Source: an uncultured Gammaproteobacteria bacterium | Lineage (GTDB): Bacteria; Patescibacteriota; Microgenomatia; Daviesbacterales; UBA10151 | Assembly: GCA_964523905.1 (NCBI GenBank) | Contig: CAZFYQ010000001.1 | Span: forward strand, 40,718-104,717 | Reading direction: 5' to 3' | DNA: 64,000 bases | Shown here: positions 6,103-44,219 of the stretch, piece by piece | How positions within the stretch are numbered: position 1 is the stretch's first letter | How the letters are laid out: each line of letters begins with the position of its first letter | Notes under the pieces: model-generated | What the model saw: the letters and a program-made list of their open reading frames with translations, nothing else | What the model was told of the DNA's origin: nothing | Databases searched by the model: none | Made by a program: the position numbers and the translations under genes

Positions 6103-7332
6103 ATGGATATAAAAGATGCGGTTTTACAGTTAATGCAGAAAAATAGAAGAATACATCAGGGATTTCAATACACTGTGCCTTCTCCCCAAACTTATCCTTA
6201 TCAGTGGTTATGGGATAGCTGTTTTCATGCCATTATTTTAACTCATTTTAATATTGAAGATGCTAAAAAAGAATTGCTTTCTGCAGTTTCCAAACAATTT
6301 AATAATGGCATGATTCCGCACATGCTTTATTGGGATAAAAATTCTAAAAATGATTTTCCGGTTATTGAATGGGGTAAACCTGACACCAGTACCATTACCC
6401 AGCCGCCCCTAATTGCTTATGCAGCTTGGCGAATTTACCAAATTGATAAAGACAAAAAGTTTTTGGCTCAAATTTATCCTTTTTTAAAAAAATATCATCA
6501 GTTTTTAATTGCAGAAAGAAGACCAAGACGCAGTTACTTGTACGGAATTATTAATCCGGATGAATCAGGAGAAGACAATTCCCCCCGCTTTGACAGGTTG
6601 CTGGGTTTGTCAGCGGTGCAGTCATTGGATGTAAATTTTAGCAAGAGAATGCTCTTGATAGAAAAACAAAAACAGATTGAATTTGAAGGCCCGGAAAGTA
6701 TGAAAGACTTCTTTTGGATCAAAGACGTGCCGTTTAATGTTATCGCAATTAATGGTTTGGAACATTTAAGTCTGATTGCCAGGGAACTTAGTCTTTTGTC
6801 AGAGTCAGAGTATTTTCAAAATCAGGCTAATTTAACTAAAGTATCAATGAGAGAGTTAATGTTTGAAGATGGAATCTTTTGGTCGGTATATGGTGAAGAT
6901 TACCAAAAAATCAAAGTCAAAACCTGGGCCATATTTGTGCCGATGTTTGCCAAATTATATACAGACAAAGAAGTAAAACATTTGGTAGACAGTTTATTGT
7001 TAAACAAAAATAGTTTTTACCCAAAGTATTTAGTCCCCACAGTGGGGAAGGATGAAGCCTCTTATGATCCTGATGGTCCAATTCGGGGAGTGGCAGCGAT
7101 GCTATCAACACATCTGTCCTGGAGAGGACCGGTATGGATGGGGGTAAATTGGTTTGTTTATCAGGGATTAATTAATTACGGATATCATGATTTGGCCAAG
7201 AAAATTTATCAGGACTCTTTAACTTTAATAGATAGATCAGGATTTAGGGAATTATATAATCCGGAAACCGGGGAAGGGATGGGGGCCCAAGATTTTACCT
7301 GGGGAGGGTTAGTCTTAGATATGGTATCTTAA
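6103..7332 (+). CDS. (alpha/alpha)6-barrel glycoside hydrolase (GH63/GH15-like, glucosyl-/mannosylglycerate-hydrolase-type)
   Basis: Motifs YQWLWDSCFHAI and C-terminal ELYNPETGEG..DFTWGG typical of six-hairpin glycosidases. Confidence 0.55.
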   Translation: MDIKDAVLQLMQKNRRIHQGFQYTVPSPQTYPYQWLWDSCFHAIILTHFNIEDAKKELLSAVSKQFNNGMIPHMLYWDKNSKNDFPVIEWGKPDTSTITQPPLIAYAAWRIYQIDKDKKFLAQIYPFLKKYHQFLIAERRPRRSYLYGIINPDESGEDNSPRFDRLLGLSAVQSLDVNFSKRMLLIEKQKQIEFEGPESMKDFFWIKDVPFNVIAINGLEHLSLIARELSLLSESEYFQNQANLTKVSMRELMFEDGIFWSVYGEDYQKIKVKTWAIFVPMFAKLYTDKEVKHLVDSLLLNKNSFYPKYLVPTVGKDEASYDPDGPIRGVAAMLSTHLSWRGPVWMGVNWFVYQGLINYGYHDLAKKIYQDSLTLIDRSGFRELYNPETGEGMGAQDFTWGGLVLDMVS

Positions 7333-14905: not shown

Positions 14906-16389
14906 ATTTAATTGATGATTTTTTAAATGGCATCACCATGTATCGGCTGCTGTTTTATTTTTTGCTGATACTAGTAGCCTGGGCAGCCGGACTGGCTTTT
15001 TTTGGACTGGTACCATTTAATCCGCTGACTTTACTGGCCTCTGTAACTTTTCTGATGCTGGTGGGCTGGGTTACTAACACGATTTTTGCCAAGACTTTTA
15101 AAGCAGTGACTAATCTTGAATCAATTTATATCACCACTTTGATTTTAAGTTTAATTATTACCCTTAGTTTAGACTTACATCATTTAATTTTTATGTTTTG
15201 GGTGGCGGTGTGGGCCTCTGCCTCTAAATTTATCTTTGCTATTAAAAAGAAAGCTATTTTTAATCCGGCTGCTATTGGAGTTTATTTAACCGGCCTGGGA
15301 ATTGTCGGGTCGGCTTCCTGGTGGGTAGGAACTGCTTGGATGATGCCAGCGGTTTTAATTGGCGGGTTTTTAATCGTTAAAAAGATCAAACGCTTTGAGT
15401 TATTTTTTACTTTCATGGCAGTAGCTTTGGTGACGATTATTGGTTTAACCGCCATTAATGGCAATGTTGACTTATCAATTATTAATAAAATCTTTCTCGA
15501 TTCTCCAATATTATTTTTTGGGATGATTATGTTAACTGAGCCTTTAACTACACCGCCAAACAGAAGCTTACGTTTTGTCTACGGCGCATTGGTAGGGTTC
15601 TTATATGCGCCGCAGTTCCATTTGGGTAGTTTTAATACCACTCCGGAGCTGGCTTTAGTAATAGGGAATATTTTTTCTTATCTGGTTTCTCCCAAAGAGC
15701 GTTTGCTACTGAAATTAAAGCAGAAAATTCAACTTAGTCCGGATACTTTTGATTTCGTGTTCGGACTGGATGCGCCGATTAAATATACTGCCGGACAATT
15801 TATGGAATGGACGCTGAGCCAGAAAAACCCGGATACGCGGGGCTCTCGGCGCTATTTTACTTTGGCCTCAAGTCCAACTGAGGATAGTTTACGCATTGGG
15901 GTGAAGTTTTATCCGAATGGAAGCTCTTGGAAAAAGACTTTAATGGAAATGCCAATTGGTGGAGAACTGGTGGCTGCCCAAGTAGCAGGAGAATTTACTT
16001 TACCAAAAGACCCGATTAAAAAGCTGGTATTTGTAGCAGGGGGTATTGGAGTAACCCCTTATCGCTCGATTATCAAATACTTAATGGATAAAAAGGAGCT
16101 TAGGGATATTGTATTAATTTACTCAGTGAAAGCTGATGTTGATGCAGTCTATATGGATTTATTTAATCAGGCTGCCAGTAGCATCGGTCTTAGAAATATC
16201 GTTAATGTTAGTGATAGGACGGGTATGGTTACAGGGGAAATGATTGCCCGGGATATTCCGGATTTTAAAGAGAGGACTTTTTATTTGTCAGGACCTCATG
16301 GAATGGTGGACGGATTTGAGAAAACTCTGGGAGGTCTTGGAGTTCCTGGCGGACAAATTAAAACTGATTATTTCCCCGGTTATGCTTAG
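14902..16389 (+). CDS. membrane oxidoreductase: polytopic N-terminal domain fused to FNR-like FAD/NAD(P)H-binding reductase domain
   Basis: About 270 aa with seven predicted TMs, then FAD motif RRYFTLASSP (RxYS/T), NAD(P) motif GGIGVTP and C-terminal YLSGPHGM. Confidence 0.7.
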   Translation: MNLIDDFLNGITMYRLLFYFLLILVAWAAGLAFFGLVPFNPLTLLASVTFLMLVGWVTNTIFAKTFKAVTNLESIYITTLILSLIITLSLDLHHLIFMFWVAVWASASKFIFAIKKKAIFNPAAIGVYLTGLGIVGSASWWVGTAWMMPAVLIGGFLIVKKIKRFELFFTFMAVALVTIIGLTAINGNVDLSIINKIFLDSPILFFGMIMLTEPLTTPPNRSLRFVYGALVGFLYAPQFHLGSFNTTPELALVIGNIFSYLVSPKERLLLKLKQKIQLSPDTFDFVFGLDAPIKYTAGQFMEWTLSQKNPDTRGSRRYFTLASSPTEDSLRIGVKFYPNGSSWKKTLMEMPIGGELVAAQVAGEFTLPKDPIKKLVFVAGGIGVTPYRSIIKYLMDKKELRDIVLIYSVKADVDAVYMDLFNQAASSIGLRNIVNVSDRTGMVTGEMIARDIPDFKERTFYLSGPHGMVDGFEKTLGGLGVPGGQIKTDYFPGYA

Positions 16390-16649
16390 GGCAGGCTATT
16401 CAAAAGATCCTGCGAACTGCCTGGGTTAAATCTAATATGCGCTGTAGTGGCATTAGTAGTACAGTTCACACCTGAGCAGCTGACCGGTTGATTATTTTGA
16501 TCAGTCACCGTAAAAGACTGGGAAACATCGAATTCCGCCTTCGCTTTATGAGTTTGTTGTTGTCTGACCAGAATTACTGCTGCAACTAGTCCTAACAACA
16601 GTACTAAGATTAATCCTAAGGTCAGAATGTTTTTTCTAGTTAACTGCAT
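16386..16649 (-). CDS. small hypothetical membrane-anchored protein (last gene of giant-protein operon)
   Basis: 87 aa; N-terminal TM (LTLGLILVLLLGLVAAVILV), Cys-containing tail; 19-nt gap to the giant gene. Confidence 0.5.
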   Translation of the reverse strand: MQLTRKNILTLGLILVLLLGLVAAVILVRQQQTHKAKAEFDVSQSFTVTDQNNQPVSCSGVNCTTNATTAHIRFNPGSSQDLLNSLP

Positions 16650-16668
16650 ATTCTTAACTTATCATATT

Positions 16669-19600
16669 TTAAGGTGAAACTACAAACGGTATGCCAGTCC
16701 GATTATTAGCGGGATTATTATCATTGACTTGGTTATAAAAATCAGCGATGACTGCAAAACAATAATTACCTGCCTCAGTTGGAGTCCAGGAATTAGGGTA
16801 AGAGAAATGTTGGCTAGACCCAGGATTTAGCTGGTTGGTTGCCGGTATAGTAGAGATAAAAGTAGTGAAGCTGACCGTAGTATCACAAATATTACTTGGG
16901 TTGGAAGAACGAATTACTCCCAAGGCGGTAGTGGTTGGATTAAGCGCCACCGTACCTAAATTGGCTGTATCAGCCTCAAAACTGACTGGTTGCCCTACGG
17001 TTGGTGATTGTGGCGACAAGCTTAAATTTTCGGCAGCAATATCAGTAATAATAGAGGGTGCCGGATTAATAATAACCGGAGATGGTTCTGGTGTTGAAGT
17101 AGGAGGTGAATAAGGTCTCTGAAAGATTAAAGACCGGGAAATAGTTTGTTGCTGTCCGTTTTGATCAAGGTAAGTAATAGTCATTAAATATGAGGTATTG
17201 GCATTTAAATCAAGATCAAGACCAGAAGAATTGTTTGGATAAATTTCCTGGTCATTAACAGTGATTCTAAGTAATTGTTTTTGGTGGGTGGTAGGAGTGG
17301 TGAGTGTTGGTGTTGGGGTATTAGCACTTGGTGCGGAACCAGTGCAGACTAAGTTGCCACAAGTTAAAGTAACATTGGCATCACAAGTAGAGGTGATCTG
17401 GTTTTGGTAAGTACAACCATCTGTTGGAGCAGGACATGAAATGCTGCGACAATTGGGATGATTGCGAGACGGTGTCGGGGTCGGTGCGGCTTCTTCAATA
17501 ATTGGCGCGTTGGTTGGTACTATATTTCCACCTAACTGGTATTCGCAGCGCTTAAGAATAGTAGGTGCAGGATCACTGCCAAAAGTACCGTTGCCACAAA
17601 CATAAGTACCTTGGGCAAAGACTTTAGTTATAAATTGCCCATTAGCTCCAAAGCGGACTGTTGCATTACCCGGTATACTACAGTTTTCAAATTCATTACT
17701 ACAGAAAGTCCAACCAGTATCAGTTGGACTGGTAGTGGGGCTAACAGCCGGTCTTTGGAAAACTAAAGAGCGGGTGGCGGTTTGTTGATGGCCCTGGGAA
17801 TCAAGATAAGTGATTTCCATTAAATAGGCACTACTGGAATTTAAATTAAGATCAATTCCATTTGGATTTTGTGGATAAATTTGTTGTCCGTTAACAGTAA
17901 TACTAATTAATTGTTTTTGGTGGGTAGTACTGGTAGGACTGATAGTTGATGGTGCATTATTTTTCCAACTTCTCATTTCTTGGAAAGCTGGTTTAGGTGA
18001 GCCATTAGGGCTCATCAGTCCTAAATAGCAATACCAGCCAAATTCTGAACTGATTTGCTGCTGGTTACAGTTAACATCAGCCAATGAGACATAATTAATA
18101 GCGGCGATTGATTTTCCATTATTTTTTGCCTGATCAACCATTTGCCTTAAACGATTGATATAAGCAGATTGAGCATCAGGAGAGGCTGGGAAACTTTGCC
18201 AGGAAGTGCTAATCCACCCGGTCTCTGAGATGAATAAAGGTAGATTAGAACCGGATGAATCAATAATACTACTTAACAGGTTTGTGGGAATATTGTTAAT
18301 ATCACTGCCATAACTAAATTCCGGATACAAAGAGACTGCTAAGACATCCACTTTGTTATTAAAATCAGCCAGTTCCTGTCTTAAATCAGAATTGGCAGTA
18401 AAACTAACAGCCACTTGGGTATTACTGCTTACTGCTTTAATGGCATCATAGGCTTTGGGGTAAAGGGTATGAGCAAAATAATTATAATCAGTCTGGTTAG
18501 CGTTTTTATAAGTATTAACCTCCAGGCCAATCAGGAGATATTTTGGATGGTAAGTCCGAGCAATATCAACCATTGTATTAATAAAGGAGTTATTATCCGG
18601 ATTAGAATACTGGTTTTGGAAAGTCACAGGAGTGGAGTCACTGCAATGATCAGTTCCATCACTGGATGCCACCTTATTTCTGCTATTACAAAGAGGATCA
18701 AAGGCAATATATGTATCAAGTCCAGCATTTTTTGAATCGTTTACATCGGTGCTAATATCCGGATTATGTAAGTCATTCCAACTTCTTTGAATATAAGCCA
18801 AACTAGCAACATCGTTAGCGCTATTCCAGCCGGTTTGACCTGAAACACTAGTTCCGGGAGAAAAAAACTTGACACCTAATTTGAAGTTTACTGGTTGGGG
18901 ATTTGCTGGAGAAGTAGGATTAGGAGTAGGACTTGCAGCAGGAGTGTGAGAAGCTGAATTTGTTGCTGTATTAACCTGGCAGTTGGCAGTAGCAGTTGTT
19001 CCCCCTGATTTTACAGTCACTGTAGCTTGATAAGTACCGGGAATGGCATAGTCAACTTGAGCAGTTTTACCGTCAAGCCCGGAATAATAATGACTGGCAG
19101 GATCGCCGCTCCAGGAGTAATCATAGGTACCATTACCGGCAGTAGCATTGGCAGTCCAGATAACTGTATCAGCAGGAGTACCAAGTGGTCCAGGTTTGGG
19201 ATAGGCAGCAGAGCAAGTCACTTGAACTGGAGTCGTGCAAGCTGGAGTGACAAGTACGTGACTGGTGCCGTCAAATGATCCGGCAGGATTACCAGCCGAC
19301 ATAATATATTGATAACTGGTGCCGGAAACTAGATCCGGTGCTGCTCCGTCAAAACCGGAAAAATCAGCCGGATCGTTTTTGATAATACCGCTGGCAGCAT
19401 TATCAGTTGGCGGAATATTAGCGTAAGCATAATTATGGTCTACCCAGATACTGTCGTGATAACCATCAGGATTTTGTATAAAGCTATATGGTGACAGAGT
19501 TCTGACAATATAGACCGCGTCTCCTGAGGAAGGCCTTAAATTTAAACTAACTTTAGGAGTAGTGCCATCACAACTGACATCAACTGATACAGGAAACCCT

Positions 19601-21771
19601 CCCGGTACTCCACCACTATTAACCGGTGGAGGAATCTGGTTACCGGTAACAGGACTAGTGACAATTAAAGGGAAGTTAGTACAGTTATTTAATATATTAG
19701 GTTCAGAAACAAGATTATGATTGGAATCAGCGCAAACCCGTACTGAATATGCTCCAGGTTGAGAAACTGTCCATTGGCTACCTTCACTAACAGGTATTAC
19801 CTCACCACCATTTTGTCCATTACAAGCTGGAGGCTGAGTTGAAGCAAAGCCGGTAAAGAGCGCTCGTCCGGTTGGTATGGCATCTTTAGGGAAAGTACCC
19901 TTAAATACTGCAAAACTGGTTGTGAAACTATTACCAGAAATATTGGAAGCAATACAACCTGTATGAAGCGCGTTGACAATAGTAGCTGCAAAACTTAAGG
20001 ATTTTCCAGTGGTAATTTGTTTAGGATCTCCCGGAGTAGCAGTAATAACAAAGTCTCTAGGACTGCCGGTGTTTTGAACTGTCAGGTCAGGAAATGGTCC
20101 TTGAATTGGTCCACCGTTGCTGTAATAAACAGTGGGGGTTGGTGTAGTAGAGATGTTAGGATTTGGGGAAGTAATTGGGACTGAAGGGTTACCAGGAGTA
20201 GTAATTGTTTTAGTGACACAATTATCAGACTCATTTGATTCAGGTGATTGATTAGTATAATCAGCACAAGCTCGGACATTATATGTTGAGCCAGGATCTA
20301 ATGCACCAGTGGTTAAAGTATCATCTTTGGATTGTCCGGGTACTATTAGACCAACATTATCTAAAGGTTTAGCAGCTACAACCGTATTATCGCTGGCTTT
20401 ACTAACAGTCAATAATTCTGATGAATTTAATACTGGTTCTGCGTTGGGGGTTAAAGGATCTATAAAATGAGCAGAAAAAACCCATCCTTGATTATTATCT
20501 TCAGTAGGTTGATCAACTTGAGCGGTAAGATTTGGTAGGTTTGCATATTCTGCTCCTGTACACATTCCGATATCCCGATCTGCAAATACCCAGTTAGGGC
20601 TATGAACCCAAGGGTCTGCGGTAGAACCTGATTCAGATATCGTACGATCACCTACATTAAGCCCAACTGTCATATGAAGATGAACAAAGGCCTGTGAAAC
20701 CAGGTTACCTGCAATATGCCAGGATTGCTTGGTATCATTAACATTAATATCCTCATTAGGTGTAGTAATATTTTGATAAACATGAAGATACTGTAAAGTC
20801 CAAACCTGACCGTCTGGCGCATCAACTGAATGATAAACTCGTGCATAACCTGTACCAGCATCAAACCATCCAATGTATTGCCATGTCACTACATGTCCAT
20901 CAATGGTTGGTAAATATACCGGATCGCCGGCATTTTTAGCGATGCCAGATCCCTGATCTGTAATATCAATTGATTTGGCAGTTCGTATCAGGTCTCCGGC
21001 AGCATTTTTTACAGGATTACAAATCCCTTGGTCTGCAATATATTGGGGACTACAATGGCCACCAATACCGGTTCCAGCATTTATTCCGGAAGTTGCTGAA
21101 CACCCTTGACTGGTGAATCCTCCAAAAGTTGTGGGTGGACCATAAGAACCGCAACTTATTTTACCCTCAGGGACTGGACAGCTAAAGACATGACCAGTGT
21201 TTGTAGTTGGATTAGTCGGATTGGCAGGAGTGTTGGGATTAGTTTGAATTGGAATTTGGGTTGCACCACCTGGTTCTGAGTTATTAGCGGTAGTGACATT
21301 ATTGCTTCCTTGAACATTTAAGGGATAATTGGCAATTGTGCCAACCTGACCACTGGTATTTTCCGGTATCACTGCTAAGTTGTAGTTACCGCTACTAACA
21401 GTCTGCGGAATTTGATAAGTCCAAGTGCCAGCGCTATTAACCGGGACTGAGGCAGTTGTACCATTAGGTGCAAGAGTTAGAATTGCTTTACCTCCGGGAG
21501 TGCCGGTGCCTGTAATGCTGTCTGCTTGAGTGATTTGGTTAGGAGCAGTGGCGCTAAAATTACGTACTGAGTAAGTTTGAGGACTATGATGAAGTCGGGG
21601 TAGAATTTGATTCTTATAAACCCAGAAGCCGGCAGGAATAAGTATTACCAAGAGAAGTAAAATGGAAAGTTTAATGATAGTTTTTTTGGGGAGATTTTTA
21701 AACATTAGAAATGGTGAAGGTTCTGGAGGAGTGTAGTTGGGTGATATATAAACTTGCGGGTTAGTATCCAC
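16669..21771 (-). CDS. giant secreted multidomain surface protein (1700 aa)
   Basis: N-terminal signal-anchor and T/N/P/G-rich linkers throughout. Clan GH-A-like TIM-barrel region (LLIGLEVN ... FISETGW, about 17962-18894). PKD-like module (YDYSWSGDP..GTYQATVTV, about 18967-19209). Possible M23-like zinc-peptidase signature (YLHV ... FVHLHM, about 20572-21099). Twice-repeated 58-aa module near the C-terminus and a Cys-rich segment. Confidence 0.8.
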   Translation of the reverse strand: MDTNPQVYISPNYTPPEPSPFLMFKNLPKKTIIKLSILLLLVILIPAGFWVYKNQILPRLHHSPQTYSVRNFSATAPNQITQADSITGTGTPGGKAILTLAPNGTTASVPVNSAGTWTYQIPQTVSSGNYNLAVIPENTSGQVGTIANYPLNVQGSNNVTTANNSEPGGATQIPIQTNPNTPANPTNPTTNTGHVFSCPVPEGKISCGSYGPPTTFGGFTSQGCSATSGINAGTGIGGHCSPQYIADQGICNPVKNAAGDLIRTAKSIDITDQGSGIAKNAGDPVYLPTIDGHVVTWQYIGWFDAGTGYARVYHSVDAPDGQVWTLQYLHVYQNITTPNEDINVNDTKQSWHIAGNLVSQAFVHLHMTVGLNVGDRTISESGSTADPWVHSPNWVFADRDIGMCTGAEYANLPNLTAQVDQPTEDNNQGWVFSAHFIDPLTPNAEPVLNSSELLTVSKASDNTVVAAKPLDNVGLIVPGQSKDDTLTTGALDPGSTYNVRACADYTNQSPESNESDNCVTKTITTPGNPSVPITSPNPNISTTPTPTVYYSNGGPIQGPFPDLTVQNTGSPRDFVITATPGDPKQITTGKSLSFAATIVNALHTGCIASNISGNSFTTSFAVFKGTFPKDAIPTGRALFTGFASTQPPACNGQNGGEVIPVSEGSQWTVSQPGAYSVRVCADSNHNLVSEPNILNNCTNFPLIVTSPVTGNQIPPPVNSGGVPGGFPVSVDVSCDGTTPKVSLNLRPSSGDAVYIVRTLSPYSFIQNPDGYHDSIWVDHNYAYANIPPTDNAASGIIKNDPADFSGFDGAAPDLVSGTSYQYIMSAGNPAGSFDGTSHVLVTPACTTPVQVTCSAAYPKPGPLGTPADTVIWTANATAGNGTYDYSWSGDPASHYYSGLDGKTAQVDYAIPGTYQATVTVKSGGTTATANCQVNTATNSASHTPAASPTPNPTSPANPQPVNFKLGVKFFSPGTSVSGQTGWNSANDVASLAYIQRSWNDLHNPDISTDVNDSKNAGLDTYIAFDPLCNSRNKVASSDGTDHCSDSTPVTFQNQYSNPDNNSFINTMVDIARTYHPKYLLIGLEVNTYKNANQTDYNYFAHTLYPKAYDAIKAVSSNTQVAVSFTANSDLRQELADFNNKVDVLAVSLYPEFSYGSDINNIPTNLLSSIIDSSGSNLPLFISETGWISTSWQSFPASPDAQSAYINRLRQMVDQAKNNGKSIAAINYVSLADVNCNQQQISSEFGWYCYLGLMSPNGSPKPAFQEMRSWKNNAPSTISPTSTTHQKQLISITVNGQQIYPQNPNGIDLNLNSSSAYLMEITYLDSQGHQQTATRSLVFQRPAVSPTTSPTDTGWTFCSNEFENCSIPGNATVRFGANGQFITKVFAQGTYVCGNGTFGSDPAPTILKRCEYQLGGNIVPTNAPIIEEAAPTPTPSRNHPNCRSISCPAPTDGCTYQNQITSTCDANVTLTCGNLVCTGSAPSANTPTPTLTTPTTHQKQLLRITVNDQEIYPNNSSGLDLDLNANTSYLMTITYLDQNGQQQTISRSLIFQRPYSPPTSTPEPSPVIINPAPSIITDIAAENLSLSPQSPTVGQPVSFEADTANLGTVALNPTTTALGVIRSSNPSNICDTTVSFTTFISTIPATNQLNPGSSQHFSYPNSWTPTEAGNYCFAVIADFYNQVNDNNPANNRTGIPFVVSP
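17116..17289 (-). repeat. intragenic repeat copy 2 (58-aa module THQKQLLRITVNDQEIYPNN...LIFQR)
   Basis: Protein-level and DNA-level similarity (about 70%) to copy 1 at 17752-17925; shared DNA stretch attgtttttggtgggt. Confidence 0.8.
17752..17925 (-). repeat. intragenic repeat copy 1 (58-aa module THQKQLISITVNGQQIYPQN...LVFQR)
   Basis: See copy 2; copies lie about 615 bp apart inside the giant ORF. Confidence 0.8.
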
Positions 21772-21807
21772 ACTTCATTTTAAGCATAAACCCGGGAAAA
21801 AGTATAG

Positions 21808-22509
21808 CTACTGGAAGATAACTGAGCCGAAGTTTTGGATTGAATTTGTTTGGCCACTTTGATCTTTGGCAGACATATTAACATTTACAGTCTGAGCTGT
21901 AGTGGAGGTGATTGTAAAGACGACGTTGCCGTTACCGTCAGTAGTACCGGATTGAGGGGTAAAGGTCACATTAGAACTACTGGTGGATAAAGTGACTGTT
22001 TCACCTCCCAGGGCATTACCTCCGGAACTTTTTAAAGTAATAGTAATAGTTGATGAGCTATTGGCTGGTAAAGTACCAGGATTAGCCACGAATTTGGATT
22101 GACCAGAATCAGGTGCCGGTGCAGGAGTGACAGTAGGAGTAATAGTGGGAGTTGGAGTATTAGTGGGACCGGCAGTAGGAGTAATAGTGGGGGTTGGGCT
22201 TTTAGTTGGTATTACCGTCGACTGGTAAGTAGTAGGCTCAGGAGTATCTGTTGGCTCAAGAGTTGGGGTAGGACTACCGTCTGGAAGAGGTTGATAAGAT
22301 GAATAATCAACTGAAGGAATAAAATATTGTTTAATTCCATATAAAACAGCCAGAATTACAATCAAAATAATTGCAGAGTAAAATTTATGAGTCAGAATGT
22401 ACTTTTTAACAGCTGTAATCCGCTGATGTTTAGAAATCTTGTTAAACTGATGAGTCAAATTGTTATCTTCCATGCAAAATAATATTATACACGACTTTTT
22501 ATTTGACAC
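21808..22509 (-). CDS. membrane-anchored surface protein with P/T-rich linker and Ig-like C-terminal domain
   Basis: TM anchor (YSAIILIVILAVLYG), linker PTPTITPTAGPTNTPTPTITPTVTPAP, beta-rich C-terminus. Start is either the GTG at 22509 or the ATG at 22473. Confidence 0.6.
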   Translation of the reverse strand: MSNKKSCIILFCMEDNNLTHQFNKISKHQRITAVKKYILTHKFYSAIILIVILAVLYGIKQYFIPSVDYSSYQPLPDGSPTPTLEPTDTPEPTTYQSTVIPTKSPTPTITPTAGPTNTPTPTITPTVTPAPAPDSGQSKFVANPGTLPANSSSTITITLKSSGGNALGGETVTLSTSSSNVTFTPQSGTTDGNGNVVFTITSTTAQTVNVNMSAKDQSGQTNSIQNFGSVIFQ

Positions 22510-22537: not shown

Positions 22538-22843
22538 ATGATTGCAAAACTGGCTAATTTTGATCCAGTTACTTATCTTAATATTGATCAGTCTTCCTAT
22601 TCACCACAGGAGTTGGGACAGCTACGCCAGGATTTGATGGCTAAAATGGGCGAATATGTCTTATTAAAACTTTCCCAAGATTTTACAGATGAGCAAGTCA
22701 ATTATCTAACTCCACTGGATGGTCAAGCAATATTTAATACGTTAGAAACTCATTTACCGGATTTTCAAAATAAATTTATGTTGGAATTAGATAACTTTAA
22801 AAAAGATTATGAAGCAGCAGGAGCAAATGATGCCAGAAATTAG
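22538..22843 (+). CDS. hypothetical protein
   Basis: 101 aa ORF directly downstream of a strong promoter; no recognisable domain. Confidence 0.45.
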   Translation: MIAKLANFDPVTYLNIDQSSYSPQELGQLRQDLMAKMGEYVLLKLSQDFTDEQVNYLTPLDGQAIFNTLETHLPDFQNKFMLELDNFKKDYEAAGANDARN

Positions 22844-23696
22844 TCAGCTGCCAGTAGAACAAGGCCCTGCACCAATAGGTAGAATTGAGAGTTTTTTGAA
22901 TCCCTTGCAAAGCGGTCGTGAGACAATGGCGAAAATCGCAAGCAGCGTGGGTTTAGCTTTAATTTTAAATGCCTGCGGGCCAGTTCAATCAAAAGAATTT
23001 ACCCCGCCGCCACCAGTTGTTGATCAAGGCAGATTAGGTCCGGAAGTAGCCGGGGCAGAGGTTGTTGATGTACCGGCACCAAAAACTGAACAAAGAGTTC
23101 AGCTGGAAAAAGAGGCTGACCAAGTAGTTGATGTAATTGATCAGTTAGTTAAGAAAGATTTTCGAGAAAAATATGGTCTAAATACGAGCGACATCAGAGA
23201 TCAATTAAAGAAAGAGGGTGACGCTAAAATACAAGAGGTAGTGAAAAGAAATCCCGCATATCCCCCAGGAAATACCAGGGAGTATTCAGCATTTGATGGC
23301 ATTACGGTTGATCAAGGACGGAATTCAAGAGGCGAGTCTACCTATACTACAGTGAATGTGGCGACCATTGATGGGCATTATAGTCCAGTGAGGCAGGGTA
23401 GTGGAAACCAGCCAATCACTCTGGAATCCATCGCAAATGCCACTAAAAACGTGGATCAAATATTTAATCTACAACCAGGCTCTAATGGTTTTAATCCACA
23501 GAGTGTAAAGGACCTCGGTCTTTGGAATGCCGAGATGCAAATGGATAAAGATGAATCACTTAGGCCAACAGGAGTAGTATCAGTTAGATACACATTGCCG
23601 GACGGTAAAATTTTTACAGTTGGTGTTTCAACCGGCGCAGGTTATGAATTAAATAGTGCCACTATTTCAGATCCTTCAAAATCAGGGGGAAAATAA
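22809..23696 (+). CDS. hypothetical secreted protein
   Basis: 295 aa; hydrophobic signal-like segment (IASSVGLALILNACG, possible lipobox), acidic coiled region, beta-rich C-terminus. Confidence 0.5.
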   Translation: MKQQEQMMPEISQLPVEQGPAPIGRIESFLNPLQSGRETMAKIASSVGLALILNACGPVQSKEFTPPPPVVDQGRLGPEVAGAEVVDVPAPKTEQRVQLEKEADQVVDVIDQLVKKDFREKYGLNTSDIRDQLKKEGDAKIQEVVKRNPAYPPGNTREYSAFDGITVDQGRNSRGESTYTTVNVATIDGHYSPVRQGSGNQPITLESIANATKNVDQIFNLQPGSNGFNPQSVKDLGLWNAEMQMDKDESLRPTGVVSVRYTLPDGKIFTVGVSTGAGYELNSATISDPSKSGGK

Positions 23697-33418: not shown

Positions 33419-33445
33419 CAAAAAATGGCTCCTTAAGGAGCCATT
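33417..33445 (-). terminator. intrinsic terminator for minus-strand sRNA
   Basis: Hairpin AATGGCTCC-TTAA-GGAGCCATT (33424-33445); read on the minus strand it is followed by a U6 tract (plus-strand A tract 33417-33423). Confidence 0.55.
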
Positions 33446-33520
33446 CCCAACCACGTTCCTATCCAAACGTTAGCTTGGAACGCGCACCGTCCGGTGACAA
33501 TTCGGAATACAGGTTTCTGT
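33417..33520 (-). ncRNA. candidate ~100-nt small RNA with own promoter and terminator
   Basis: Minus-strand promoter TTGCAT-17 nt-TATACT (plus coordinates 33527-33555) and the terminator above; GC-rich relative to flanks, with internal hairpins (CACCG-GA-CGGTG; GTTCC..GGAAC). Confidence 0.4.
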
Positions 33521-37052: not shown

Positions 37053-37397
37053 ATGAACGCATATGAAAGATTAGTACAATCCAGAAAGTTAGAGCAGATG
37101 TATGGTCCGGAAAGAATTGCCCGAATGGTGGCTGACAGAGAGGCAACTGACCCGAGTATTACCCGGAAGAAACAAATTTACAAAGAGCAGGCAGTAGACA
37201 TTGCTAATAAATTAGGTGCTATACCCTTAACCCCAATTCAAAGAGAAAGACTGCAGTGGCAATTGGATGTGCTTACTTACAGGGCAGAGCATGGACCAGT
37301 AATACATTCAGGATATTATGACTTTAACTTATTACCGGAAACTTTAGCTGCACGTAATCCCTTAACTGGCGGTAGGGGAATGGAAGGAATTAGTTAA
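37053..37397 (+). CDS. hypothetical protein
   Basis: 114 aa ORF behind a near-consensus promoter. Confidence 0.5.
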   Translation: MNAYERLVQSRKLEQMYGPERIARMVADREATDPSITRKKQIYKEQAVDIANKLGAIPLTPIQRERLQWQLDVLTYRAEHGPVIHSGYYDFNLLPETLAARNPLTGGRGMEGIS

Positions 37398-39183
37398 TTC
37401 TACTAGCGCGAAGAGCATTGATAATCACTGCTACATCAATGCCTTCCTGTAGGATGGCGCCATAAATTGGGGGGATTAGGCCAAAGGAGGCAAAGACCAT
37501 GGCGATCACACTGACCCCAATTCCAGCTAAGATACTTTGAATAGCAATGCCCACAGTTTGTTTGGAAATATTGATGATGTCAGAAACTAACTGAAAATTT
37601 CCTCCCAGGAAAACGATATCCGCTGCTTCTGAGGCGGCTGTTTGTTCTTCATGAGAAAAAACTAGTCCGGCATCTGCCAAAGCCAAAGCTGGAGCATCAT
37701 TTATACCATCTCCAATCATGGCAATGGCCTTGTTTTCCTGTTGCAGTTTACGGATGCCAATTTGTTTATCCTGTGGAGTGCAATTAGCCTGTAAACAAAT
37801 TCGGGAGTCCAGCTGTTCAATGACCTTTTCCGCTGCTCCCAGCTTATCTCCCGTATAGATGAAGATTTCATAACCCTGCGAAAGCAAGTTTTTTATTACC
37901 GCCTGAGAGTCTTCCTTAATTTGATCTTCAAAGTAAAAATTGGCCAGTTGTTTTTGGTCTTTAAACAAAGCAATGGCCATACCAGTATCCAGTGGCAATT
38001 TACTAAGATGATAAACTGTGCCGGAAACTTTACCACTAATTCCTTTGCCCACCTCTTCTTTAATATCCTCAGCCGGCAGCTTCGGGGTTTTGTTTTGCGT
38101 AGCAAAGTCCACTACTGCCTTGGCCAAAGGATGCAAAGAATTTCTTTCAATGGCCTGGGCAATTTCCAGAACTTTTTTCTGAGAATAGTTTTTATCCAAG
38201 ATTTCCAGTTTGGTAACTATTGGTAGACCCAGGGTTATGGTGCCGGTTTTATCAAAAATAATTGCTTTGACTTTAGATAAGGCCTCCAAGGAAGAGAGTC
38301 TTTTGACAATGATACTTTTTTTAGCAGAGGCATTGACGCCACCTAAAAGGGCTATCGGGGTAGCCAAAATTAACGGGCAAGGGGTGGCTACCACCAAAAC
38401 TGCCAATACTGTCACAATATTATGACTATAAAACCAGGCAAACGTAGCAATAAAAATAGTCAGAATGGTAAAAATCGTGCTGTAGCGATTGGCCAAGCGG
38501 ATTAAAGGAGCTTTTTCCTGCTGGGCCTGTTTGACCATTTCAATAATTTTATGATAAGTGGAGTTTAGTTCTGTTTTTGTAACCTCCAACACCATCGGGT
38601 CACCAACATTAACTGTTCCAGATCGTAAAAGATCGCCTTTAATTTTTTCCGAAGTATAAGGTTCTCCGGTTAAAGAGGATTCATCAGCTAAACCAGTGCG
38701 GGATTTTAAAATTCCATCCAAAGGAATCACTTCACCTCTTCGGATCACAATTTCCTGGCCGATTTTGATGTTTTCAATGTGAGCTTTTTCTGCGGGCTGA
38801 TTATTTTGCCAAAGGGTGACAAGACTGGGAATGCGGTCTGCTAATTTGGTTAAATTACTTTTAGCCGAGTTGATACCGTATTCTTCTAAGGTCCTTCCGG
38901 AAGACAGCATTAAGGCAATAATTGAGGCTACTAAGTAATCTCCGGTAATAAAAGCCACTGAAATTGCTAACATTGCTACATAATCCAAGGCAAATTGTTT
39001 TCTTTGAATTTCCTGGTAACTATCTACTACCAGCTGGTAAGAGCCAAGCAAAATAGTAACAATGATTAAAGGCAGGGATAAGGAATTTAGCTTAAAGATG
39101 TTTAAAATCAAATAAACAATGATTCCGGAAAGCACTAGCAGAGGAATTTTAAAAGCTTTAATAAGGGAAAAAGAAATGAGCAT
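37390..39183 (-). CDS. P1B-type heavy-metal ATPase with T-P-C-P membrane motif (P1B-5-like), no N-terminal metal-binding domain
   Basis: DKTGTIT, TGD, GDGINDAPAL and HP loop (NSLHPLA); TM motif VATPCPLILATP (PCP codons at 38374-38382). Confidence 0.75.
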   Translation of the reverse strand: MLISFSLIKAFKIPLLVLSGIIVYLILNIFKLNSLSLPLIIVTILLGSYQLVVDSYQEIQRKQFALDYVAMLAISVAFITGDYLVASIIALMLSSGRTLEEYGINSAKSNLTKLADRIPSLVTLWQNNQPAEKAHIENIKIGQEIVIRRGEVIPLDGILKSRTGLADESSLTGEPYTSEKIKGDLLRSGTVNVGDPMVLEVTKTELNSTYHKIIEMVKQAQQEKAPLIRLANRYSTIFTILTIFIATFAWFYSHNIVTVLAVLVVATPCPLILATPIALLGGVNASAKKSIIVKRLSSLEALSKVKAIIFDKTGTITLGLPIVTKLEILDKNYSQKKVLEIAQAIERNSLHPLAKAVVDFATQNKTPKLPAEDIKEEVGKGISGKVSGTVYHLSKLPLDTGMAIALFKDQKQLANFYFEDQIKEDSQAVIKNLLSQGYEIFIYTGDKLGAAEKVIEQLDSRICLQANCTPQDKQIGIRKLQQENKAIAMIGDGINDAPALALADAGLVFSHEEQTAASEAADIVFLGGNFQLVSDIINISKQTVGIAIQSILAGIGVSVIAMVFASFGLIPPIYGAILQEGIDVAVIINALRASRIN

Positions 39184-42131: not shown

Positions 42132-44219
42132 GTGATAATGCATAGTCACGGTAATCACAAAATGTCCTGGTGGGATAAATTTAAGATGAGTATGACCATG
42201 ACTATGGGTATGGATCATACGGGTTTGGCCGGACGTGAGATGGCCAGACTAATGGAAGAAGATATCCGTAATAAGTTTTTCTTTTCTTTAATTTTAACTC
42301 TGCCGATTTTAGCCTATACCATGGGGGAGGCGATTTTTGGCTGGATGTTGCCCAGCCCAATTCCTAAACCCTGGTTGCTGTTTTTATTAACCACTCCGGT
42401 ATTTTTTTACGGCGGCTGGTTGTTTTTATACTCCGCCTTCTTTGAATTAAAAACCAGAAATTTAGGCATGTCGGTTTTGATTGCTGTGGGAATTTCTGCG
42501 GCCTATTTATTTAGTTTAGCGTTAACTTTTTTGGGCAGCCAGGAATCTTTTTATGAAGCCTCGGCGATGTTAATTACCTTTGTATTATTTGGCCATTGGA
42601 TGGAGATGAAATCTCGTCGGGGAACTACTGATGCTTTGCAGGCTTTGTTTAATCTGGTGCCGCCTCAGGCTAGAGTAATCCGCAGTGGTAATGAACAAAT
42701 TATTCCCACGGCAGATGTAAAAGTCGGGGATTTATTACTATTAAAACCCGGAGATAAAGTGCCGGTTGATGGGGAAATTATTAATGGTGAAACTGCCATT
42801 GACGAGTCGCTGGTAACCGGAGAATCAATTCCAGTGGTTAAAAAAATCGGTGATGCGGTGACTGGTGGATCAATTAATATCTCCGGCTCAGTAGAATTTA
42901 AAGCTACCAAAGTGGGCAAAGATACTGCACTGGCCCAAATTGTTAAAATGGTAGAAACTGCTCAGAACTCTAAGGCGCCTGGCCAAAAACTAGCAGATCG
43001 GTTTGCTAAATACCTGGTGATAGTGGCTGTAGGCGGAGGCTTGGTGACTTTTACGGTCTGGTTTTTTGTGCTGGGACAGCCTTTACTGTTTGCCTTAACC
43101 TTTGCCATTTCCGCCGTAGTAATTGCCTGTCCGGATGCTTTGGGTCTGGCCACTCCCACAGCAGTGGCAGTCGGAACCGGATTGGGAGCCAAGCATAATA
43201 TTTTAATAAAAGACGCTCCAACCTTAGAACAGGTTTCCAAAATTCAGGTGGTGGTATTTGATAAAACCGGTACTTTAACCGAGGGTAAGCCAATAGTGAC
43301 AGATATTGTGGCAGCAGCTGGTTATTCGGTAAACGAGGTCCTAAGACTGGTAGCAACTGTGGAGGCTAAATCATCGCATCCCTTAGCCGGTGCAGTGTTG
43401 GAAGAGCTGAAACGAAAAAGGCTGGTGATGGAAACTGGCCTGGAGCTGTTTGAGAATTTATCCGGGCTAGGAGTAAAAGCTGTGATTAATAAGCAAACAG
43501 TGCTAGTTGGTACCATGAAGTTAATGCAGCAAAATAAAATTGGGATTACTAATGCTTTGCAAACTAACATTAATAAATTTTTGGCAAATGGGGATACCAT
43601 CATGATTCTAGCAGTAGATGGAGCAGCTATGGGAGTGATTGGGGCTGCTGATCCAATTAAACCAACAGCGGCAAAAGCAATGGAAAGGTTGAAACAACTG
43701 GAGATAGAAGTGGCGATGATTACCGGTGATAATCAGTCAACCGCAGAGAGTGTAGCAAAAAAACTTGGCATTCAAAGAGTATTTGCTGAAGTAATGCCAG
43801 GAGAAAAATCGCAGTATATAAAAAAGCTACAACAAGAAGGGCAGTTTGTGGCGATGGTGGGAGATGGGGTAAATGATGCTCCGGCTTTGGCTCAGGCAGA
43901 TATTGGTATTGCAATTGGGGCGGGTACTGATGTGGCCATTGAAACAGCGAAAGTAGTGCTAATGAAATCTGATCCGGCTGATGTTTTACGGGCAATTAAA
44001 CTTTCCAAAGCAACTGTGTTAAAGATGAAACAGAATTTATTTTGGGCCTCGATTTATAATTTACTGGCGATTCCGGTGGCGGCCGGTGTATTGTATCCAA
44101 ATTTTGGTATTTTCCTGCGGCCGGAAATCTCAGCACTTTTGATGAGCTTATCCTCCATTATAGTGGCGGTAAATGCAGTGTCCCTGAAGCTAACTGAAAA
44201 GGATTTAGCCAAAATTTAA
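42132..44219 (+). CDS. P1B-type heavy-metal ATPase with His/Met-rich N-terminus and atypical C-P-D membrane motif
   Basis: N-terminus MIMHSHGNHKMSWWDKFKMSMTMTMGMDH; DKTGTLT, SSHPLA, GDGVNDAPAL; TM6 motif IACPDALGLATP (43128-43136). Confidence 0.8.
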   Translation: MIMHSHGNHKMSWWDKFKMSMTMTMGMDHTGLAGREMARLMEEDIRNKFFFSLILTLPILAYTMGEAIFGWMLPSPIPKPWLLFLLTTPVFFYGGWLFLYSAFFELKTRNLGMSVLIAVGISAAYLFSLALTFLGSQESFYEASAMLITFVLFGHWMEMKSRRGTTDALQALFNLVPPQARVIRSGNEQIIPTADVKVGDLLLLKPGDKVPVDGEIINGETAIDESLVTGESIPVVKKIGDAVTGGSINISGSVEFKATKVGKDTALAQIVKMVETAQNSKAPGQKLADRFAKYLVIVAVGGGLVTFTVWFFVLGQPLLFALTFAISAVVIACPDALGLATPTAVAVGTGLGAKHNILIKDAPTLEQVSKIQVVVFDKTGTLTEGKPIVTDIVAAAGYSVNEVLRLVATVEAKSSHPLAGAVLEELKRKRLVMETGLELFENLSGLGVKAVINKQTVLVGTMKLMQQNKIGITNALQTNINKFLANGDTIMILAVDGAAMGVIGAADPIKPTAAKAMERLKQLEIEVAMITGDNQSTAESVAKKLGIQRVFAEVMPGEKSQYIKKLQQEGQFVAMVGDGVNDAPALAQADIGIAIGAGTDVAIETAKVVLMKSDPADVLRAIKLSKATVLKMKQNLFWASIYNLLAIPVAAGVLYPNFGIFLRPEISALLMSLSSIIVAVNAVSLKLTEKDLAKI

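What the first reader, a model, noticed from the sequence alone, without database searches (positions are those of the whole stretch)
16386..22509. Operon encoding a 1700-aa secreted multi-enzyme surface protein flanked by two small anchored proteins
The giant ORF combines a signal-anchor, long T/N/P/G-rich linkers and a clan GH-A-like TIM barrel; the GLEV acid/base-like and ISETGW nucleophile-like motifs recall GH17/GH128/GH26 enzymes. It also has a PKD-like Ig module, a possible LytM/M23-like YLHV...VHLHM signature, a duplicated YxVRxCAD...NC subdomain, a Cys-rich segment, and a 58-aa module repeated twice near the C-terminus (about 70% DNA identity between copies). It is flanked in the same orientation by a PT-linker Ig-like anchored protein (21808-22509) and an 87-aa TM protein (16386-16649). 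A cell-surface polysaccharide- and peptidoglycan-directed hydrolase of this size suggests host or prey cell-wall attack, or remodelling of the organism's own envelope. The repeat copies are a substrate for recombinational length variation.
Basis: partly seen in the sequence, partly recalled or inferred. Interest (0 to 1): 0.65.

Follow-up and report, generated by a model that had tools for sequence, protein, structure and literature searches.

The report
Membrane-anchored surface protein with two wall-cutting enzymes
This is a real 1700-residue, membrane-anchored surface protein from an uncultured bacterium that joins a divergent lysostaphin-like peptidoglycan peptidase to a rare sugar-cleaving TIM-barrel enzyme on a string of Ig-like spacers; it probably cuts cell-envelope polymers, but whose envelope it cuts is not known.

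Summary
Three same-strand ORFs lie at the stated coordinates, and every quoted motif is present.

- **Peptidase domain (aa 193-412).** No Pfam or NCBIfam model matches it. Its AF2 model matches only M23 peptidases (phi29 gp13, lysostaphin, LytM, Csd3, phage lysins). It belongs to an undescribed family of about 250 clusters in which His239, Asp269, His330, His364 and His366 are 93-99% conserved. Other members are fused to SLT, Amidase_2/3, C39-like or canonical M23 domains, and sampled loci sit beside VirB4 in type IV secretion loci.
- **Metal site.** The canonical HxxxD histidine is Ala here, so this is an M23-like variant and not a canonical member.
- **Glycosidase domain (aa 955-1275).** It is a clan GH-A-type (β/α)8 barrel. 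Glu1084 follows β4 and Glu1183 follows β7, and both are invariant in all six homologues found. It is nearest to GH17 and GH53 but not securely in either. One stand-alone homologue lies in a Wzy-type surface-glycan cluster.
- **Other modules.** The "YxVRxCAD" subdomains are CARDB-like. The PKD match is below threshold. The 58-aa module is duplicated (74% DNA identity).
- **Neighbours.** The 87-aa TM gene is syntenic in the one related locus; the Big_1 gene is not.
- **Weak point.** The recombination idea has little support: the longest shared exact run is 18 nt.

Substrates and target cell remain inferred. I rate it a new variant of known kinds, of moderate interest.

The parts
16669..21771 (-). 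1700-aa multidomain surface protein (GTG start); identical protein P0001 in NCBI, unnamed
   Evidence: N-terminus conserved in P0002
21613..21681 (-). N-terminal signal-anchor TM helix (aa ~31-53), preceded by KNLPKK; the only hydrophobic segment, no C-terminal anchor motif
   Evidence: hydropathy; sequence
21307..21588 (-). Ig-like Big_13 domain (aa ~62-155), below threshold in the giant and above it in P0002
20536..21195 (-). M23-like (LAS-fold) peptidase domain, aa 193-412. Conserved residues are His239, Asp269, His330, His364, His366 and four Cys. No Pfam or NCBIfam model covers it.
20197..20499 (-). CARDB-like domain 1 (aa ~425-525; contains YNVRACAD...NC)
   Evidence: CARDB 24.7 bits, cutoff 22.7
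19657..20109 (-). CARDB-like domain 2 (aa ~555-705; contains YSVRVCAD...NC), below threshold
   Evidence: CARDB 18.5 bits, E 0.0024
19234..19608 (-). Unassigned beta-rich module (aa ~722-846). By eye it resembles a segment of P0002 in the same relative position; this was not aligned.
   Evidence: no family; sequences
18973..19212 (-). PKD-like Ig module (aa ~854-933), weak
   Evidence: PKD 16.2 bits, cutoff 23.5
17947..18909 (-). Clan GH-A-type (beta/alpha)8 glycosidase domain, aa 955-1275. Glu1084 (GLEVN) follows beta4 and Glu1183 (ISETGW) follows beta7.
17749..17925 (-). 58-aa module, copy 1 (aa 1283-1341)
17533..17721 (-). Unassigned Cys-containing module (aa ~1351-1413, GWTFCSNEFENC...KRCEY)
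   Evidence: no family
17338..17466 (-). Cys-rich segment (aa ~1436-1478)
17113..17289 (-). 58-aa module, copy 2 (aa 1495-1553); a third example is in P0002 aa 991-1048
16681..17049 (-). C-terminal CARDB domain (aa ~1575-1697)
   Evidence: 33-44 bits, cutoff 22.7
16386..16649 (-). 87-aa single-pass membrane protein with two Cys. It is conserved directly downstream of the P0002 relative (44% identity, identical C-terminal QDLLNSLP).
21808..22509 (-). TM-anchored PT-linker protein with a Big_1/invasin-D3 Ig domain. The likely true start is ATG 22473. It is absent from the related locus L003.

Best explanation
The gene encodes a type-II membrane-anchored protein that projects from the cell surface. 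Two probably active envelope hydrolase domains are separated by Ig-like, CARDB and PKD-like spacers and T/N/P-rich linkers.

The membrane-proximal enzyme (aa 193-412) is a divergent M23/LAS-fold metallopeptidase. It belongs to a family otherwise used as the peptidoglycan-cutting module of type IV secretion loci. By homology it should cleave peptide stems or cross-bridges of peptidoglycan, using a zinc held by Asp269, His366 and probably His239, with His330 and His364 as catalytic histidines.

The distal enzyme (aa 955-1275) is a retaining clan GH-A-type glycosidase, with Glu1084 as acid/base and Glu1183 as nucleophile. It comes from a rare unclassified family nearest GH17 and GH53, and it should cut a beta-linked wall or surface glycan.

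Together they would open both the peptide and the glycan parts of a cell envelope at the cell surface. The target could be the envelope of a cell the organism attaches to, or its own. The conserved downstream 87-aa membrane protein is a partner of unknown role.

Shown here: the folds, the residue conservation, the domain fusions and the gene neighbourhoods. Inferred: the catalysis itself, the substrates, the target cell, and that the organism is a monoderm-like Patescibacterium.
For: **Peptidase domain**
- AF2 model: pTM 0.73, with the core strands at pLDDT 80-92.
- The six best PDB matches are all M23 enzymes, at probability 0.97-1.00. The best ~27 viral matches are almost all M23 peptidases, lysins, endolysins or tail/baseplate proteins.
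- hhalign against lysostaphin plus a canonical M23 gives E 2.6e-5 and aligns Asp269, His330 and the HxH.
- The family has 250 clusters at E<=1e-3, with His/Asp/His/HxH 93-99% conserved.
- Of 63 members scanned, 8 carry SLT, 5 Amidase_3, 2 Peptidase_C39_2, 1 Amidase_2 and 1 canonical M23.
- P0003 lies directly after PrgI-like, TraC-like and VirB4 genes. The stand-alone forms sit in similar dnaN-proximal loci.
- PMC12102498 reports that peptidase and lysozyme homologues downstream of virB4 are essential for epibiotic growth of Ca. Southlakia epibionticum.

**Glycosidase domain**
- Eight beta/alpha units, with Glu1084 right after beta4 and Glu1183 right after beta7.
- Foldseek finds GH-A barrels at E down to 2e-9.
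- The profile hits GH17 4wtp at E 3.7e-4. ISETGW matches exactly, and in the related entry 4wtr the aligned Glu reads Ala (ISATGW), apparently a mutant of that residue.
- Both Glu are invariant in 6 homologues.
- Homologue P0008 overlaps a GT4 gene inside a cluster with Wzy_C, PMT and an epimerase.

**Topology**
- A single N-terminal TM segment.
Against: - No activity data exist.
- Both AF2 models have only moderate confidence (pLDDT 64-66), built from shallow alignments of 7 and 2 sequences.
- The canonical M23 HxxxD histidine is Ala264, and I could not inspect the model coordinates to show that His239 reaches the metal site.
- The GH lacks the Asn that usually precedes the acid/base Glu in clan GH-A (Leu, Val or Ile instead, with an E-x-N motif).
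- The GH family assignment is ambiguous, so the substrate is unknown.
- The organism's taxon, and therefore its envelope type, was not established.
- The peptidase sits only about 140 residues from the membrane. That fits action on the cell's own wall as well as, or better than, attack on another cell.
Confidence: 0.7

Rival explanations
1. Attack tool: the protein breaches the envelope of a host or prey cell to which the (probably episymbiotic) bacterium attaches. The distal GH clears a wall or capsular glycan and the peptidase opens the peptidoglycan.
For: The peptidase family belongs to secretion-system loci that have been linked to epibiotic growth. Giant surface proteins and secreted peptidoglycan hydrolases are proposed host-interaction factors in CPR predators (PMC8080830). 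The long spacer array places the GH far from the producer's own membrane. No homologue was found in cultured phages or plasmids.
Against: There is no evidence of lifestyle or taxon for this genome. The peptidase domain is membrane-proximal. The window holds ordinary housekeeping genes and no pili or T4SS genes.
Confidence: 0.35
2. Self-remodelling: the peptidase locally opens the cell's own peptidoglycan, as T4SS hydrolases do, and the GH trims the cell's own surface polysaccharide, as PslG- or BcsZ-type enzymes do.
For: The stand-alone GH homologue P0008 lies inside a Wzy-type glycan biosynthesis cluster, and another homologue is next to a GT4 gene. PslG is among the top fold matches. The peptidase is close to the membrane anchor. 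T4SS-linked relatives are thought to act on the producer's own wall (PMC12102498).
Against: The giant gene is not in a glycan or cell-division cluster. Eleven further modules and 1700 residues are far more than a housekeeping trimming enzyme needs. Relative P0002 lacks the GH altogether.
Confidence: 0.3
3. Scavenging: a surface-tethered depolymerase that releases sugars and peptides from environmental polysaccharide and dead-cell wall material for an auxotrophic cell.
For: It is surface tethered, and CARDB and PKD modules are typical of the extracellular hydrolases of degraders. The nearest GH relatives, GH17 and GH53, are polysaccharide depolymerases.
Against: No uptake or catabolic genes lie next to it. 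The peptidase family is linked to secretion loci, not to catabolism.
Confidence: 0.12
4. Adhesin only: the enzyme-like domains are catalytically dead binding modules.
For: The non-canonical metal motif (Ala in place of the HxxxD His) and the missing Asn before the acid/base Glu. The protein also has many Ig-like modules.
Against: All the other catalytic-type residues are 93-100% conserved across both families. That pattern is not expected of degenerate domains.
Confidence: 0.08

Closest known systems
M23 (LAS) peptidoglycan endopeptidases: lysostaphin, LytM, phi29 gp13, H. pylori Csd3
   Same: Same beta-sheet core fold. It has the HxH motif, and the catalytic His sits in a Y-x-H-hydrophobic strand. 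The Asp aligns with the Asp of HxxxD.
   Different: No PF01551 match. The His of HxxxD is Ala264, and an invariant His239-Cys240 lies 30 residues upstream. Four invariant Cys are present. The domain is about 220 aa with extra N- and C-terminal elements. From memory, the M23A enzymes (LasA, beta-lytic protease) also have a longer His...Asp spacing and disulfides; I did not test this here.
Cell-wall hydrolases of monoderm-type type IV secretion systems (PrgK, TraG of pIP501, CD419) and the peptidase/lysozyme genes downstream of virB4 in Patescibacteria
   Same: The same M23-like domain family occurs in proteins placed directly after VirB4 and fused to SLT-like and amidase modules. PMC12102498 describes this arrangement.
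   Different: The giant protein is not in a T4SS locus. The domain is near the N-terminus rather than C-terminal, and it is joined to a GH-A glycosidase and CARDB/PKD spacers.
GH17 beta-1,3-glucanases/glucanosyltransferases and GH53 beta-1,4-galactanases (clan GH-A)
   Same: (beta/alpha)8 barrel with Glu after beta4 and after beta7. The nucleophile motif ISETGW is identical to that of R. miehei GH17.
   Different: Scores are below or only just at the family thresholds. The Asn before the acid/base Glu is missing. Only six homologues were found across the two searches run (the word-index protein search and one motif-seeded metagenome scan). The substrate is unknown.
Glycosidases encoded inside exopolysaccharide operons (PslG) and the TIM-barrel wall hydrolase Cwp19
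   Same: Both are among the best fold matches. Homologue P0008 lies in a glycan biosynthesis cluster, as PslG does.
   Different: No detectable sequence similarity. The giant's own gene is not in such a cluster.
Giant membrane-anchored surface proteins of CPR bacteria (e.g. Vampirococcus lugosii)
   Same: Very long membrane proteins with PKD-type interaction modules, proposed to act in host recognition (PMC8080830).
   Different: In the passages I read, those proteins are described through interaction and adhesion domains, with no hydrolase domains mentioned. This one carries two hydrolase-type domains.

Membership tests
Peptidase M23 (Pfam PF01551 / MEROPS M23) | Match to the family HMM at its gathering score | tested here: not met
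   No PF01551 hit for the whole protein or for the isolated domain, even at E<=5. No NCBIfam hit either.
Peptidase M23 (Pfam PF01551 / MEROPS M23) | M23 beta-sheet core fold | tested here: met
Peptidase M23 (Pfam PF01551 / MEROPS M23) | HxH motif plus the upstream catalytic His | tested here: met
   His364-x-His366 and His330 are 93-99% conserved in 154 members.
Peptidase M23 (Pfam PF01551 / MEROPS M23) | HxxxD zinc-binding motif | tested here: not met
   Asp269 aligns with the motif's Asp and is 99% conserved, but the His position is Ala264. The invariant His239, 30 residues upstream, could substitute. That geometry could not be checked.
Peptidase M23 (Pfam PF01551 / MEROPS M23) | Zinc-dependent cleavage of peptidoglycan peptides | not testable with these tools
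   Only indirect support: fusion to SLT, amidase, C39-like and M23 modules, and T4SS neighbourhoods.
Clan GH-A glycoside hydrolases | (beta/alpha)8 barrel | tested here: met
   Eight beta/alpha units in the model. There are 288 PDB matches at E<=1e-3; all but one of the 50 listed are clan GH-A glycosidases or proteins engineered on a GH10 xylanase scaffold, the exception being the GH-like TIM-barrel wall hydrolase Cwp19. pLDDT is only 64.
Clan GH-A glycoside hydrolases | Catalytic Glu at the end of beta4 (acid/base) and of beta7 (nucleophile) | tested here: met
   Glu1084 follows strand 124-127 and Glu1183 follows strand 225-228 of the domain. Both are invariant in 6 homologues and align with the GH17 catalytic motifs.
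Clan GH-A glycoside hydrolases | Asn immediately before the acid/base Glu (N-E motif) | tested here: not met
   That position is Leu, Val or Ile in all six sequences; instead there is an invariant E-x-N.
GH17 (PF00332) | Match to the family HMM at its gathering score | tested here: not met
   Best 14.3 bits (P0008) against a cutoff of 28.2, and 3 of 6 members match at E>=0.008. Profile against PDB GH17 gives E 3.7e-4 to 5e-4.
GH53 (PF07745) | Match to the family HMM at its gathering score | tested here: inconclusive
   27.6 bits for the isolated domain (cutoff 24), but 22.8 for the whole protein. The match is partial (profile positions 138-291 of 340) and is seen in only 2 of 6 family members.
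CARDB (PF07705) | HMM match at threshold | tested here: met
   C-terminal domain 33-44 bits and first internal copy 24.7 bits (cutoff 22.7). The second internal copy, at 18.5 bits, is below threshold.
PKD domain | HMM match at threshold | tested here: not met
   16.2 bits against 23.5 for PF00801, and 14.8 against 27 for PKD_4.
Three-gene operon | Same strand, short gaps and conserved gene order in relatives | tested here: inconclusive
   Gaps are 36 and 19 nt. The small TM gene is conserved downstream of P0002, but the Big_1 gene is absent from that locus. Only one related locus is available, and there are no transcript data.

The most novel reading that the evidence does not exclude
The protein is the envelope-breaching device of an episymbiotic Patescibacterium. 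It would have borrowed the lineage-specific, non-canonical-zinc-site LAS peptidase of the type IV secretion locus and coupled it to the founding member of a new clan GH-A family that digests a host wall glycan. The conserved 87-aa membrane protein would act as its regulator or self-protection partner.
Probability: 0.2. Interest if true: 0.65.

Novelty: new variant of a known kind. Interest (0 to 1): 0.45.

Why it matters
Multidomain surface wall hydrolases are a familiar kind of protein, so the concept is not new. Three things here are not in the family libraries I searched (Pfam, NCBIfam, PDB sequences).

1. A family of about 250 clusters of M23-like peptidases with an altered metal motif. 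No Pfam or NCBIfam model covers it. It appears to be the wall-cutting module of the secretion loci that have been linked to epibiotic growth in Patescibacteria.
2. A very rare GH-A-type glycosidase family lying between GH17 and GH53, of unknown substrate.
3. Their fusion in one anchored protein.

If the substrates were determined, that would give a handle on how ultra-small, uncultured bacteria open cell envelopes, whether their own or a host's. It would also add a candidate new glycoside hydrolase family and a candidate M23 subfamily.

Tried and rejected
- **Whole-protein homologue search.** It was swamped by low-complexity linkers: 8000 candidates and only 3 real hits. I switched to per-domain queries.
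- **PDB sequence searches with the peptidase profile.** Nothing.
- **Genome-collection scan with the peptidase alignment.** It returned only two weak loci (27-28% identity) and not the source genome, so the taxon stays unestablished.
- **Look-up of P0001's contig.** Not on record.
- **Literature search for the sample accessions.** No hits.
- **tblastn of the peptidase domain against phage and plasmid collections.** No match, which argues against a recent phage or plasmid origin.
- **My guess that HPGVD at P0013 residue 218 was its canonical M23.** Wrong. The real one is at 1326-1409.
- **Promoter/terminator scan.** No better than shuffled sequence.
No support in any search.
- **Unassigned modules.** aa 722-846, the Cys modules at 1351-1478 and the 58-aa module gave no family. 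The only hint was a 0.06 E-value to a cadherin-like beta-sandwich.
- **Read-level copy-number variation.** Not testable here. An independent Logan contig is 100% identical to the window and ends between the two repeat copies, which shows only an assembly break.
Full report
**1. The observation**

- 16386-16649(-), 87 aa
- 16669-21771(-), 1700 aa, GTG start
- 21808-22509(-), 233 aa

The gaps between them are 19 and 36 nt. No terminator-like site separates the genes, and the promoter and terminator scans were no better than shuffled sequence.

All the quoted motifs exist: GLEV 1082, ISETGW 1181, YLHV 328, VHLHM 363, VRACAD 499, VRVCAD 677, THQKQL 1283 and 1495.

The repeat is two 180-nt copies, 17114-17293 and 17750-17929, at 74% identity. 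At protein level 40 of 62 residues match, with 13 synonymous and 22 non-synonymous codon differences.

Each of the three proteins has one N-terminal hydrophobic segment.

The giant ORF is a real gene. An identical protein is in NCBI with no name. A 1114-aa relative, P0002, shares the N-terminus, which supports the GTG start. It also shares the Big_13, M23-like and CARDB-like domains and one copy of the 58-aa module.

**2. The peptidase-like domain (aa 193-412)**

Pfam and NCBIfam see nothing here, and neither does a PDB sequence search.

An alignment with six homologues gave an AF2 model with pTM 0.73 and mean pLDDT 65.5. The core strands reach pLDDT 80-92, but two long loops are poorly modelled.

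Foldseek against the PDB returns only M23 enzymes in the first six places: phi29 gp13, lysostaphin, LytM and Csd3, at probability 0.97-1.00. After those come unrelated low-probability matches. Against viral models, the first ~27 hits are almost all M23 peptidases, Lysin A or endolysins, or tail and baseplate proteins.

An exhaustive profile search finds 250 clusters at E<=1e-3 and 107 at E<=1e-10. In most, the domain is at the C-terminus of a 600-850-aa protein.

Across 154 members the following are 93-99% conserved: His239, Cys240, Asp269, His330, His364 and His366. Four cysteines are invariant in a 63-member alignment.

hhalign of the family against lysostaphin plus a canonical M23 domain gives E 2.6e-5 over 132 columns. 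The alignment puts Asp269 on the Asp of HxxxD, His330 on the YMHL His, and His364/His366 on HLHF. The HxxxD histidine position, however, is Ala264.

I therefore call it M23-like and not a canonical member.

**3. What the peptidase family does elsewhere**

Of 63 members scanned, 8 carry SLT, 5 Amidase_3, 2 a C39-like peptidase, 1 Amidase_2, 1 a separate canonical M23 (P0013, in tandem with the M23-like domain) and 1 a GH5.

P0003 combines an SLT-like region (by eye; Pfam reports no SLT domain in P0003), this domain and Amidase_3. It lies directly after PrgI-like, TraC-like and VirB4-type genes and close to dnaN and dnaA. The stand-alone forms P0004, P0006 and P0007 sit in similar dnaN-proximal loci; there the large upstream genes are unannotated, so a VirB4 identity is presumed, not shown.

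PMC12102498 describes monoderm-type T4SS in Patescibacteria. It notes that peptidase and lysozyme homologues downstream of virB4 are essential for epibiotic growth of Ca. Southlakia epibionticum.

There is no tblastn match in cultured phage or plasmid collections.

This is strong guilt-by-association for peptidoglycan hydrolysis. It is also indirect evidence that the window comes from a Patescibacterium; I could not establish the taxon directly.

**4. The glycosidase domain (aa 955-1275)**

On its own the domain scores 27.6 bits on GH53, against a cutoff of 24, over part of the model.

The word-index search found a single homologue, P0008: 395 aa, TM-anchored, 38% identical. It retains GVEVN and VSETGW. 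A metagenome scan added four more sequences (L009, L011, L012, L013), giving a six-sequence alignment. In that alignment Glu1084 (motif E-x-N) and Glu1183 (PLF[IV]SETGW) are invariant.

The profile hits GH17 structures: 4hpg at E 5e-4, with both catalytic motifs aligned, and 4wtp at E 3.7e-4 with an identical ISETGW. In the related entry 4wtr the aligned Glu reads Ala (ISATGW), apparently a mutant of that residue. GH53 galactanases score more weakly, E 0.035-0.1. Pfam GH17 stays below threshold.

The AF2 model (pTM 0.71, pLDDT 64, only two sequences in the alignment) has eight beta/alpha units. Glu1084 comes right after beta4 and Glu1183 right after beta7, which is the clan GH-A arrangement.

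Foldseek gives 288 PDB matches at E<=1e-3. Those listed are GH10 xylanases and proteins engineered on a GH10 scaffold, Cwp19, PslG, GH164, GH5_18 and GH39.

The Asn that normally precedes the acid/base Glu is absent.

That test is therefore passed. The family is unclassified and the substrate unknown.

Context gives one hint. P0008 overlaps a GT4 gene inside a cluster with an epimerase, RGP, an acetyltransferase, PMT, Wzy_C and PMT_2. Another homologue is next to a GT4 gene. This is the position that PslG-type enzymes hold in exopolysaccharide operons.

**5. The remaining modules**

- The 'YxVRxCAD...NC' subdomains are the ends of CARDB-like domains, at 24.7 and 18.5 bits. The C-terminal domain is a clear CARDB.
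- Big_13 is below threshold here but above it in P0002.
- PKD is below threshold.
- aa 722-846, 1351-1413 and 1436-1478 and the 58-aa module match no family. The 58-aa module does recur in P0002.

**6. Neighbours and synteny**

The 233-aa protein is a TM-anchored PT-linker protein with a Big_1/invasin-D3 domain at 48.3 bits. Its true start is probably ATG 22473.

In the only related locus (L003) the divergent 101-aa and 295-aa genes and the small downstream TM protein are conserved. The small protein is 44% identical with an identical C-terminal QDLLNSLP. The Big_1 gene is missing there.

So the conserved unit is the giant gene plus the small TM gene. P0002 lacks the GH, so the GH and the second 58-aa copy are lineage-specific additions.

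The rest of the window is housekeeping: enolase, PEP-utilising enzyme, two-component systems, transporters, UppP.

**7. Mechanism**

Best explanation: a type-II anchored surface protein with a membrane-proximal M23-like peptidoglycan peptidase and a distal retaining GH-A-type glycosidase on Ig-like spacers, cutting envelope polymers.

Shown here are the folds, conserved catalytic-type residues, fusion partners and neighbourhoods. Inferred are catalysis, substrates and the target cell.

The evidence does not decide between attack on a host envelope (about 0.35), remodelling of the organism's own envelope (about 0.30) and scavenging (about 0.12). An inactive adhesin is unlikely (about 0.08), given the residue conservation.

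The suggested recombinational length variation is weakly founded. The copies share at most 18 identical bases in a row. The one independent assembly is identical to the window and merely breaks between the copies.

**8. Novelty and score**

Multidomain surface wall hydrolases, T4SS wall hydrolases and giant CPR surface proteins (PMC8080830) are all known.

New here are an unmodelled M23-like family with a non-canonical metal motif, a very rare GH-A-type family, and their fusion in one protein.

I rate it a new variant of a known kind, interest 0.45.

Noticed in passing
window 33445-33515 (-): Rfam DUF3800-IX RNA motif at 53.2 bits (gathering score 36.8). It is the only Rfam hit in the window.
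   Followed up: no
L008 5539-13132; L015 3-3717; L016 2-5465; L017 1-2013: The M23-like family sits in a recurring locus next to dnaN (and dnaA in L008). The order is a large upstream gene (VirB4-type in L008, unannotated elsewhere), a ~183-aa gene, the M23-like gene, a ~160-aa gene and a Big_5 gene. In L008 the wall hydrolase is one fused 1114-aa protein; elsewhere it appears split into small genes.
   Followed up: partly
P0013 (1448 aa), residues 1070-1280 and 1326-1409: One protein carries the M23-like domain and a canonical Pfam Peptidase_M23 domain in tandem. The two types are therefore not interchangeable copies.
   Followed up: partly
window 16386-16389: The stop of the 87-aa gene (-) overlaps by 4 nt the end of the convergent 495-aa membrane FAD/NAD-binding oxidoreductase gene (+). 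That gene follows an FMN-binding-like gene (assigned by eye, not scanned) and an ApbE-like gene (also by eye).
   Followed up: no
window 22473-22509: The listed GTG start of the Big_1 gene is probably too far upstream. An ATG at 22473 lies 10 nt after a TATAAT, and the 233-aa sequence is absent from the protein collection. This implies a very short or absent leader.
   Followed up: partly
window 22538-23696 (+) and L003 5503-6691: A divergent pair of unknown genes (101 aa and 295 aa, with overlapping ends) is conserved next to the giant gene's relative. Neither has any Pfam match.
   Followed up: partly
L004 1095-11953: The stand-alone GH homologue P0008 is embedded in a surface-glycan cluster that contains an RGP (UDP-arabinopyranose mutase-type) gene, two PMT-type GT-C genes and Wzy_C. 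This hints at an arabinofuranose-containing glycan.
   Followed up: no
L007 (Logan SRR9179560), = window 15180-17433: An independent assembly is 100% identical to the window. Its contig ends inside the Cys-rich segment, between the two copies of the 58-aa module, as expected if the repeat breaks short-read assembly.
   Followed up: partly
window 6103-7332 (+): An MGH1-like/GH63-type glycosidase (227 bits). Elsewhere there are a MacB/HlyD-type efflux set and two P-type ATPases (37390-39183 -, 42132-44219 +). GC skew is positive in all but the first and last 2-kb bins of the window.
   Followed up: no
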